Assembly (NCBI RefSeq): GCF_030013595.1
Contig: NZ_CP122768.1
Source of the DNA: Escherichia coli
GTDB taxonomy: Bacteria; Pseudomonadota; Gammaproteobacteria; Enterobacterales; Enterobacteriaceae
Reading direction: 5' to 3' (one strand)
DNA: 64,000 bases
In this document: in pieces, positions 41,901-42,933 of the stretch
Layout: every line of letters starts with the position of its first letter
How positions within the stretch are numbered: position 1 is the first letter of the stretch
Position numbers: made by a program

Positions 41901-42933
41901 CTTTGCGTGGTTCTTTATGCTCTCGGGCATTCTGAGTCTCTACCCCGGGTAGCTGCCCGGTTTAACATTCCCAGCCACAACACGGTTAAAAACTGGATAA
42001 AAGGCTACCGCAAATCTGGTAATGAGGCCTTTATCAGGCGCAGGAAGGAGAAAAGCATGACCCGTTCTGATGATACCCATGAAAACGAGGCAAACATGAC
42101 GCCGGAAGAGATGAAGAATGAGCTGCGTTATCTTCGCGCAGAAAATGCATATCTGAAAGCCATGCAGGAGCATCTCCTGGAAAAAAAGCGCCAGGAGCTG
42201 GAGAAAAAACGAAAGTCATCCGGAGCCTGAGGTGCGGACACTGCCAGTCTGACCTGTTAAAGGCTGCAGGGCTGGCCAGAAGCACGCTGTACTACCAGCT
42301 GTCACTGCAGAAGGCTAAGGACAAGTATGCTGATGTGAAACAGCTCATAGCCTCCATCTTCCATGAACACCGGGGATGTTATGGGTACCGGCGGATCCAT
42401 TGTGAGCTTCAGAAAAGAGGTCTTAAGTTCAGTGGCAAAACGGTGCGAAAACTGATGCAACAGCTCGGCCTGAAGTCTCCTGTGCGCCTGAAGAAATACC
42501 GGTCTTACCGGGGAAATATGGGACTCGCTGCAGAAAATATCCTTCAGCGGCAGTTCAAAGCGGAAGCTCCCTGTGAGAAATGGGTGACAGATATCACCGA
42601 ATTCAGGGCTGGCGGACAAAAACTGTACCTGTCCCCGATACTTGATTTGTTTAACGGGGAAATCGTGGCGTGGGAAACTGCCTGCAGGCCTACAGAGGAG
42701 CTGGTGAAGCGGATGTTAAATAAGGGGCTGGAAAGCCTTGCTGAAGGGGAGAAACCGCTGCTCCACAGTGATCAAGGATGGCATTACCGGATAAAAAGTT
42801 ATCAGTCCGCCCTGGCGGACAGAGGGTTAGTGCAGAGCATGTCGCGCAAGGGCAACTGCCTTGATAATGCGGTAATGGAGAACTTCTTTGGTCACCTGAA
42901 AGAAGAAATGTACTATCGCCGGGACTACAGAAA

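What the first reader, a model, noticed from the sequence alone, without database searches (positions are those of the whole stretch)
42150..42340. Intact programmed -1 frameshift signal suggests the IS is transposition-competent
Seen in sequence: the heptamer A-AAA-AAG at 42182-42188 lies in the orfA frame near its 3' end, and the -1 frame is open from there through the DDE domain to 43057. Established knowledge: IS3-family transposases are made as OrfAB fusions by -1 slippage at A-AAA-AAG. Both ORFs lack internal stops.
Basis: partly seen in the sequence, partly recalled or inferred. Interest (0 to 1): 0.25.

Follow-up and report, generated by a model that had tools for sequence, protein, structure and literature searches.

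The report
Intact IS1397 frameshift signal, already known
The flagged A-AAA-AAG motif is the real ribosomal frameshift site of a complete copy of the known E. coli insertion sequence IS1397; public genome annotation already describes it this way, so the finding is correct but ordinary.

Summary
A-AAA-AAG lies at 42182-42188 in the orfA zero frame (GAA AAA AAG), and the -1 frame is open from 42122 to 43057.

The element (41658-43089, 1432 bp) is IS1397, of the IS3 family and IS150 group. It sits in the loop of a REP palindrome between ysaA and avtA and has a 3-bp AAA target duplication. RefSeq annotates a 100% identical copy at the same locus as 'IS3-like element IS1397 family transposase, programmed frameshift'. 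The 449-aa fusion joined at this heptamer is an existing NCBI protein.

All sequence requirements for activity are met:
- both inverted repeats
- the D295/D355/E391/K398 catalytic motif
- an SD-like AGGAG 11 nt upstream of the heptamer
- a downstream hairpin (42192-42229, -12.4 kcal/mol)

Competence itself remains an inference.

One detail seems new. In 72 of 72 relatives the heptamer lies in a conserved xYL-KK motif, followed by a covarying 11-bp stem. IS1397 and two other lineages have lost that site and carry a replacement signal 27 nt downstream.

The parts
41658..43089 (+). Complete IS1397 insertion sequence (1432 bp, IS3 family, IS150 group)
   Evidence: 100% identical over 1432 bp to a RefSeq copy annotated as an IS1397 family transposase; 1707 of 5426 complete E. 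coli genomes hold a copy covering at least 80%
41658..41682 (+). Left terminal inverted repeat, TGAACTGCACCCCAAATGTTGGACA (starts 5'-TG)
   Evidence: Read; 21 of 25 positions match the reverse complement of the right end (my count); one search finds only these two ends as close matches
43065..43089 (-). Right terminal inverted repeat (reverse complement TGAACTGAACCCCAAAACCTGGACA; the element ends ..CA-3')
41655..41657 (.). Left copy of the 3-bp target-site duplication AAA
   Evidence: The empty site in strain A10 reads ggcTAAAAcgcc; the occupied site reads ggcTAAAA-IS-AAAcgcc
43090..43092 (.). Right copy of the 3-bp target-site duplication AAA
41641..41657 (.). Left half of the REP/palindromic unit split by the insertion (gccggatgcggctaaaa)
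   Evidence: Contiguous with the right half in 4492 genomes that have the empty site
43090..43109 (.). Right half of the split REP/palindromic unit (aaacgccttatccggcctac)
41709..42230 (+). orfA, 173 aa: helix-turn-helix domains plus a leucine-heptad region; the zero frame
   Evidence: Pfam HTH_28 and HTH_Tnp_1; the exact protein is on at least 1000 contigs
42153..42161 (+). Position homologous to the frameshift heptamer of relatives (..AYL-KK..). Here it reads CTG AAA GCC and is not slippery
   Evidence: Protein and DNA alignments; 72 of 72 relatives have A-AAA-AAR at this position
42166..42170 (+). Shine-Dalgarno-like AGGAG, 11 nt upstream of the heptamer; a putative upstream frameshift stimulator
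   Evidence: [quoted passage not shown]
42182..42188 (+). Slippery heptamer A-AAA-AAG in the orfA zero frame; the site of programmed -1 ribosomal frameshifting
   Evidence: the PGAP-type fusion protein joined here exists in NCBI; conserved
42192..42229 (+). Predicted downstream hairpin: 38 nt, -12.4 kcal/mol, starting at the 4th nt after the heptamer. The same 5' arm can alternatively pair with 42244-42256
   Evidence: meets the PMC4066793 hairpin rules; z = -2.0 for 42189-42260. Homologous 5' arms in L087 and L093 form hairpins of -23 to -29 kcal/mol. The exact pairing is unresolved
42203..42210 (+). Second A-run, G-AAA-AAA-C, in the overlap; a non-canonical alternative slip site
   Evidence: changed to AAAAAG in variant L084; a fusion protein with this junction is annotated only once
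42122..43057 (+). orfB frame (-1 relative to orfA), open throughout. The OrfAB coding sequence is 41709-42188 joined to 42188-43057, giving 449 aa
   Evidence: Pfam HTH_21, rve and rve_2; NCBIfam NF033516 at 387 bits
42590..42592 (+). Catalytic D295 (WVTDITEF)
   Evidence: Conserved in at least 60 of 61 aligned homologues
42770..42772 (+). Catalytic D355 (HSDQGW)
42878..42880 (+). Catalytic E391 (AVMENFF), with K398 seven residues later at 42899-42901
   Evidence: the spacings D-60-D-36-E are those of the IS3-family DD(35)E motif

Best explanation
Window 41658-43089 is a complete copy of insertion sequence IS1397, inserted into the loop of a REP palindrome between ysaA and avtA.

Most ribosomes translating its mRNA make OrfA (173 aa, HTH plus leucine heptads) and stop at 42230. 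A fraction slip back one base when the two tRNA-Lys occupy AAA-AAG at 42183-42188. They re-pair on A-AAA-AA and continue in the orfB frame, producing the 449-aa OrfAB transposase (..LLEKK-APGAGEK..) with its DD(35)E catalytic domain.

Slippage is probably enhanced in two ways. The AGGAG 11 nt upstream can pair with 16S rRNA. A hairpin whose 5' arm starts 4-9 nt downstream can impede the ribosome.

Shown here: the identity of the element, the frames, the heptamer register, the intact IRs, target duplication and DDE motif, and conservation of the signal. Inferred: that frameshifting occurs at this heptamer, how efficient it is, the roles of the two stimulators, and that this copy can transpose.
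For: Identity. The element is 100% identical over 1432 bp to a RefSeq copy at the same locus, annotated 'IS3-like element IS1397 family transposase, programmed frameshift'.

Frames and register.

Junction. The fusion protein joined at the heptamer is in NCBI on 71 contigs.

Domains. Pfam finds HTH_28, HTH_21, rve and rve_2. NCBIfam finds the IS3 transposase model at 387 bits against a cut-off of 160. D295, D355, E391 and K398 are conserved in at least 60 of 61 homologues.

Insertion site. Comparison with the empty site gives a 3-bp duplication inside a REP loop. Three other copies also sit in REPs, with 3-4 bp duplications.

Recent mobility of the family. Only 22 of 5426 complete genomes have this insertion and 4492 have the empty site. 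Some genomes hold up to 10 or more near-identical copies.

The signal. The SD-like element and the hairpin both meet the published criteria of PMC4066793. The block ATGCAGGAG-N7-CTGGAAAAAAAGCGCC-N-GGAGC-N-GGAGAAAAA is invariant across three lineages with about 58% OrfB identity. All 72 relatives with a -1 orfB use A-AAA-AAR.

Experimental context. [quoted passage not shown] I saw it only as a citation in PMC1525189.
Against: No experimental measurement of frameshifting at this site could be read, because the primary IS1397 papers are not held.

The predicted hairpin is modest: 0.33 kcal/mol per nt, against a mean of 0.45 for IS3-family structures in PMC4066793. Its spacer is short at 3 nt. Variant L084 breaks one outer pair, and alternative pairings exist.

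The heptamer is not at the position used by 72 of 72 relatives, so homology to experimentally studied sites is indirect.

No sigma-70-like promoter was found inside the element. OrfB differs at two residues from Q47310. Rfam has no matching frameshift element.
Confidence: 0.85

Rival explanations
1. Frameshifting occurs mainly, or also, at the second A-run (G-AAA-AAA-C, 42203-42210), giving an OrfAB with the junction ..ELEKK-TKVIRS..
For: The run lies in the overlap in the zero frame as AAA AAA. A protein with this junction has been annotated once. GGAG motifs lie upstream of it.
Against: It is not an X-XXY-YYZ heptamer: the P-site tRNA would have to re-pair on GAA. The nearest GGAG is directly adjacent and the AGGAG is only 6 nt away, which is outside the favourable spacing. 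No hairpin starts 4-10 nt after it. The run is altered in variant L084, and reads AAAAAG in L087 and L093. 71 contigs against 1 favour the canonical junction.
Confidence: 0.05
2. The fusion arises by transcriptional slippage: RNA polymerase adds one A in the A7 run at 42181-42187, producing an mRNA with the two frames fused, rather than by ribosomal slippage.
For: IS1397 and its two sister lineages have seven consecutive A (GAAAAAAAG), one more than the relatives (TTAAAAAAG). Transcriptional realignment is used by some IS elements (PMC6211511, title and abstract seen).
Against: From my own knowledge of the field, efficient slippage by E. coli RNA polymerase needs runs of about 9 or more. The zero-frame register, the SD-like element at the right spacing and the downstream hairpin are features of ribosomal frameshifting, not transcriptional.
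Confidence: 0.05
3. The signal is intact but this copy is nevertheless immobile or nearly so. Possible causes are its substitutions relative to the tested IS1397, weak expression, or host control. On this view 'competent' over-reads the sequence.
For: There are two OrfB substitutions relative to Q47310. No promoter-like site was found in the element. Some copies are demonstrably dead: the UM146 copy has a 1-nt deletion in orfA. The same insertion is shared with two pig isolates, so this copy may simply be inherited.
Against: The exact OrfA is on at least 1000 contigs and the exact OrfAB on 71. Copies 99.9% identical occur at about 10 places per genome, which points to recent spread of this sequence type. 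Both substituted positions lie outside the conserved columns. From established knowledge, IS3-family elements typically have weak resident promoters and assemble a strong promoter on the circle junction.
Confidence: 0.15
4. The heptamer is incidental and OrfB is translated on its own from an internal start such as GTG 42335, with no fusion protein made.
For: A 240-aa ORF starting at GTG 42335 is annotated separately in many older records (cluster 4).
Against: That ORF lacks the HTH_21 region and any DNA-binding N-terminus. The -1 frame stays open for 213 nt upstream of GTG 42335, back to 42122. The conserved OrfB alignment with homologues begins only a few codons after the heptamer. The heptamer and its neighbours are invariant across lineages about 58% identical.
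Confidence: 0.02

Closest known systems
IS1397 (E. coli; IS3 family, IS150 group), as annotated in RefSeq and described by Bachellier, Clement, Wilde and colleagues
   Same: It is this element. There is 100% nucleotide identity to annotated copies. Length (1432 bp), ends, two-ORF layout, annotated programmed frameshift, insertion into the loop of REP palindromic units and the 3-4 bp duplication all agree.
   Different: Nothing of substance. OrfB differs at 2 of 240 residues from UniProt Q47310. The insertion site between ysaA and avtA is rare, occurring in 22 of 5426 genomes.
ISKpn1-like and other relatives with 50-58% OrfB identity (Klebsiella L016, Kosakonia L020, Enterobacter L030, many Bacillota, Burkholderia L089, Ralstonia L090)
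   Same: They share the two-ORF 0/-1 layout, the A-AAA-AAR heptamer, a GGAG about 11 nt upstream in many (42 of 72), a downstream stem, the same total linker length and the same DDE motif.
   Different: Their heptamer lies in the codons xYL-KK and is followed, 6 nt later, by a covarying 11-bp long-range stem (GCCTTAGTTCA / TGAACTAAGGC). IS1397 has lost both: it reads CTG AAA GCC at 42153-42161 and the stem is broken at every pair. Its heptamer lies 27 nt downstream with a different hairpin.
Three-part -1 frameshift signals of E. coli dnaX and IS911 (upstream SD-like sequence, A-AAA-AAG, downstream structure)
   Same: The slippery heptamer is the same, and an SD-like AGGAG lies 11 nt upstream. 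In dnaX the spacing is 10 nt (from my own knowledge). The criteria in PMC4066793 are met. A hairpin lies downstream.
   Different: The hairpin is weaker and less well defined than in dnaX. The efficiency is unknown. No Rfam frameshift-element model matches.
IS150 (E. coli K-12 insJK), the founding member of the subgroup. High-level frameshifting at A-AAA-AAG with a stem-loop was reported by Vogele et al. 1991, cited in PMC4066793
   Same: Same subgroup according to database names ('IS3 family, IS150 group'), same heptamer and same principle.
   Different: The protein sequences are distant, and I did not align them here. IS150 does not target REPs (my own knowledge).

Membership tests
IS3 family insertion sequence | Length about 1.2-1.6 kb, with imperfect terminal inverted repeats beginning 5'-TG and ending CA-3' | tested here: met
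   1432 bp. IRL is TGAACTGCACCCC.. and IRR ends ..GGGGTTCAGTTCA. 21 of 25 positions match.
IS3 family insertion sequence | Two consecutive, partly overlapping ORFs, with orfB in the -1 frame relative to orfA | tested here: met
   orfA is 41709-42230. The -1 frame is open from 42122 to 43057, giving a 109-nt overlap.
IS3 family insertion sequence | Transposase with a DD(35)E catalytic triad and K/R seven residues after the E | tested here: met
   D295, D355, E391 and K398 are conserved in at least 60 of 61 homologues. Pfam rve scores 75.7 bits. NCBIfam NF033516 scores 387 bits against a cut-off of 160.
IS3 family insertion sequence | 3-4 bp direct target duplication | tested here: met
   AAA is duplicated relative to the empty site in strain A10. 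Duplications of 3-4 bp are seen at three other copies.
IS3 family insertion sequence | Transposition through a figure-of-eight and circle intermediate with a junction promoter | not testable with these tools
   This needs experiments. No resident sigma-70-like promoter was found.
IS1397 (the specific element) | Nucleotide identity to IS1397 over its full length | tested here: met
   100% over 1432 bp to copies that RefSeq names IS1397. OrfB is 238/240 identical to UniProt Q47310 'OrfB protein'. The ISfinder reference sequence itself was not available.
IS1397 (the specific element) | Insertion into the loop of REP/palindromic units of BIMEs | tested here: met
   The REP gccggatgcggctAAAAcgccttatccggc is split in its loop. 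The same holds at three other copies. The literature statement is in PMC1525189.
Programmed -1 ribosomal frameshift signal (bacterial, heptamer type) | An X-XXY-YYZ heptamer in the zero frame within the overlap | tested here: met
   A-AAA-AAG at 42182-42188, read as GAA AAA AAG.
Programmed -1 ribosomal frameshift signal (bacterial, heptamer type) | [quoted passage not shown] | tested here: met
   AGGA at 42166 and GGAG at 42167. Invariant in variants and sister lineages.
Programmed -1 ribosomal frameshift signal (bacterial, heptamer type) | A hairpin of 17-140 nt that starts 4-10 nt after the motif, is closed by a G-C pair plus at least three further pairs, and needs at least 7.6 kcal/mol to unfold (rule from PMC4066793) | tested here: met
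   42192-42229: 38 nt, -12.4 kcal/mol, starting at the 4th nt, and 0.13 kcal/mol per nt above the local average. Covariation support is inconclusive because only three lineages are available.
Programmed -1 ribosomal frameshift signal (bacterial, heptamer type) | Demonstrated production of the trans-frame protein | not testable with these tools
   There are no proteomic or reporter data, and the primary papers are not held.

The most novel reading that the evidence does not exclude
IS1397 and at least two sister lineages have relocated the whole frameshift signal 27 nt (9 codons) downstream of the position fixed in all 72 other relatives examined. The sister lineages are an IS on a Pantoea sp. 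SO10 plasmid and a metagenomic element, L093. The ancestral heptamer and its covarying long stem were lost, and a new AGGAG, heptamer and hairpin were gained, while the total linker length stayed the same. As a result OrfAB keeps nine more OrfA-frame residues, including a further leucine heptad. This could alter how OrfA and OrfAB pair and so how transposition is regulated. This turnover of a recoding signal does not appear in what I could read of the literature.
Probability: 0.75. Interest if true: 0.25.

Novelty: already known. Interest (0 to 1): 0.1.

Why it matters
For annotation it means one thing: this is a complete IS1397, best annotated as a single transposase gene with ribosomal slippage at 42188, not as two genes or a pseudogene. 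It is probably still mobile.

An active, REP-targeting IS is a source of strain-to-strain polymorphism in intergenic regions. This insertion is present in only 22 of 5426 complete genomes, so it could serve as a lineage marker.

The relocated frameshift signal is a small, clean example of how a recoding signal can move within an overlap during evolution. It is of interest mainly to specialists in recoding and IS3 biology.

Tried and rejected
1. Primary IS1397 papers. PMC94167, PMC95333 and PMC169884 are not held, so I found no experimental statement on the frameshift site.

2. Rfam scan of the element. No frameshift-element family matched. The only hits were sub-threshold chance-level ones, plus a partial ES036 match in the right flank.

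3. Promoter and terminator scan of the element. No sigma-70-like promoter was found. This is not informative for IS3-type elements.

4. A third IR-like match at 17953-17968. It lies inside a 378-aa ORF with no transposase nearby, so I rejected it as chance.

5. Intermediates between IS1397 and its 58% relatives. None between 60% and 95% identity turned up in one-per-species genomes or in plasmids, so the relocation cannot be dated.

6. The hairpin CTCCTGG/CCAGGAG (42174-80 / 42191-97) as stimulator. I rejected it because its loop contains the heptamer, so a ribosome at the site must already have melted it.

7. The ancestral long stem in IS1397. It is broken at every pair.

8. Covariation for the new hairpin. 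Three lineages are too few, and several pairing registers are possible.

Full report
**1. What is in the sequence**

One search shows 'ctc ctg gaa aaa aag cgc' around 42174-42191. orfA starts at ATG 41709 (the ORF lister starts it at GTG 41700) and ends with TGA at 42228-42230. Its codons begin at positions divisible by three. GAA (42180), AAA (42183) and AAG (42186) are therefore orfA codons, and A-AAA-AAG at 42182-42188 is a zero-frame X-XXY-YYZ heptamer.

Translating the -1 frame shows its last upstream stop at 42119-42121 and an open frame from 42122 to the TAA at 43055-43057. The two frames overlap for 109 nt, and neither has an internal stop.

AAAAAAG alone is common, with 28 copies in the window. 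An in-register copy inside a 109-nt overlap is nevertheless expected in under 1% of cases (my arithmetic). A second, non-canonical A-run (G-AAA-AAA-C, 42203-42210) also lies in the overlap.

**2. What the element is**

The stretch 41658-43089 (1432 bp) begins TGAACTGCACCCC and ends GGGGTTCAGTTCA. A megablast search against 5426 complete E. coli genomes finds copies covering at least 80% in 1707 genomes. One of these is a 100% identical copy at the same ysaA-avtA locus in strain HCP5S3_I2. RefSeq annotates that copy as 'IS3-like element IS1397 family transposase', a two-piece CDS flagged 'programmed frameshift'.

An exact look-up shows that the 449-aa fusion joined at the heptamer (..LLEKK|APGAGEK..) is an NCBI protein seen on 71 contigs. 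The fusion joined at the second A-run occurs once.

Pfam finds HTH_28, HTH_21, rve and rve_2. NCBIfam's IS3 transposase model scores 387 bits against a cut-off of 160. In an alignment with 60 homologues, D295, D355, E391 and K398 are conserved, with the spacing of the IS3-family DD(35)E-K motif.

**3. Insertion site**

Joining the two flanks and searching the same genomes finds an uninterrupted site in 4492 of them. In strain A10 it reads gccggatgcggcTAAAAcgccttatccggcctac, which is a REP palindrome. In the window the element sits in the loop, with AAA duplicated.

Only 22 genomes carry IS1397 at this junction. Three other copies (UM146, 1532WA, ECSC054) are also inside REPs, with 3-4 bp duplications. 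This matches what PMC1525189 reports for IS1397: experimentally shown insertion into REP sequences. That paper also cites a 1999 study whose title states that IS1397 is active for transposition in K-12.

**4. The frameshift signal in detail**

I applied the published search rules of Sharma et al. 2014 (PMC4066793).
- An SD-like AGGA/GGAG at 42166-42170 lies within the stimulatory distance of the motif.
- The hairpin is more stable than the local average by 0.13 kcal/mol per nt, above the lowest value that paper reports for IS3 elements with known structures.
- It is weaker than the family mean, and the same 5' arm can also pair with 42244-42256. The exact structure is therefore unresolved.

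The heptamer itself sits in the loop of a local hairpin (42174-80 / 42191-97). That hairpin cannot act as a downstream stimulator. Rfam has no matching frameshift family.

**5. Comparison with relatives**

A scan of one genome per species returned 80 loci whose OrfB is 50-58% identical. Of 74 loci with both ORFs, 72 have orfB in the -1 frame. All 72 have A-AAA-AAG (65) or A-AAA-AAA (7) in the zero frame, always in the codon context xYL-KK.

Six bases downstream, these relatives carry an 11-bp long-range stem (GCCTTAGTTCA ... TGAACTAAGGC). It is paired in 90.9% of cells, against 21-48% for slid controls, and five of its pairs show compensatory changes.

IS1397 aligns without gaps through this region. 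At the homologous place, however, it reads CTG AAA GCC (42153-42161), and it breaks every pair of the stem. Its own heptamer lies nine codons further on.

The same derived arrangement is present in an IS on a Pantoea sp. SO10 plasmid (58% OrfB identity) and in a metagenomic element, L093. The nucleotide block from ATGCAGGAG through the heptamer to GGAGAAAAA is almost invariant across the three. Burkholderia and Ralstonia relatives keep the ancestral site.

The derived signal is therefore old and conserved, which is indirect evidence that it works. Because the site moved, OrfAB in this subclade retains nine more OrfA-frame residues (AMQEHLLEK), including another leucine of the heptad repeat. 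Any functional consequence of that is speculation.

**6. Is this copy competent?**

Everything that can be read from sequence is intact: both ends, both frames, the slip site with its neighbours, and the catalytic residues.
- The exact OrfA is on at least 1000 contigs.
- Copies 99.9% identical occur at about ten places in some genomes.
- Dead copies do exist: the UM146 copy has a 1-nt deletion at the position of 41854 and is flagged as frameshifted. This copy has no such defect.
- OrfB differs at two non-conserved positions from Q47310.

Competence is thus a well-founded inference, not a demonstration.

**7. Verdict**

The feature is already known and already annotated in public records, so interest is low. 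The only new item is the relocation of the frameshift signal within the IS1397 subclade, a minor evolutionary point.

Noticed in passing
L086 601-665 (E. coli K-12 MG1655 NZ_CP010445.1 4424042-4424106); matches window 43025-43089: About half of the complete E. coli genomes, including K-12, lack a full IS1397 but carry an unannotated 65-bp stretch 95% identical to the IS1397 right end. In K-12 it lies between yhhI (an ISEc1 transposase) and yhhJ. It looks like a solo-end remnant of an old insertion.
   Followed up: partly
window 42171-42200: The slippery heptamer sits in the 10-nt loop of a local inverted repeat (CATCTCCTGG / CCAGGAGCTG, 90% complementary). The 3' arm is also the 5' arm of the predicted downstream hairpin, so the two structures exclude each other. 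Whether this has a regulatory meaning is unknown.
   Followed up: partly
window 43110-43150: There is a sub-threshold Rfam match to ES036 (CssrF) sRNA: 29.7 bits against a gathering score of 37.6, E = 0.002, cut off by the end of the searched stretch. It lies in the REP-rich spacer between the IS and avtA.
   Followed up: no
L083 (E. coli UM146 NC_017632.1 772161-773591): This IS1397 copy is 1431 bp, with a single-base deletion at the position of window 41854 in orfA. RefSeq flags it as a frameshifted pseudogene. It lies in a REP next to a 5S rRNA gene.
   Followed up: yes
whole window: AAAAAAG occurs 28 times on both strands, against 14.9 +/- 3.4 expected from dinucleotide-preserving shuffles (none of 100 shuffles reached 28).
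   Followed up: no
window 43150-43175: A second REP-like palindrome (gcctgataagcgtagcgcatcaggc) lies about 60 bp to the right of the insertion. The IS therefore sits in a multi-REP (BIME-like) spacer downstream of avtA.
   Followed up: no
L016 and L037 (Klebsiella pneumoniae ATCC 13883): Two copies of an ISKpn1-like relative occur in the same genome. L016 has the intact 0/-1 arrangement with A-AAA-AAG. In L037 orfB is in the +1 frame relative to orfA, so that copy is probably degenerate.
   Followed up: no
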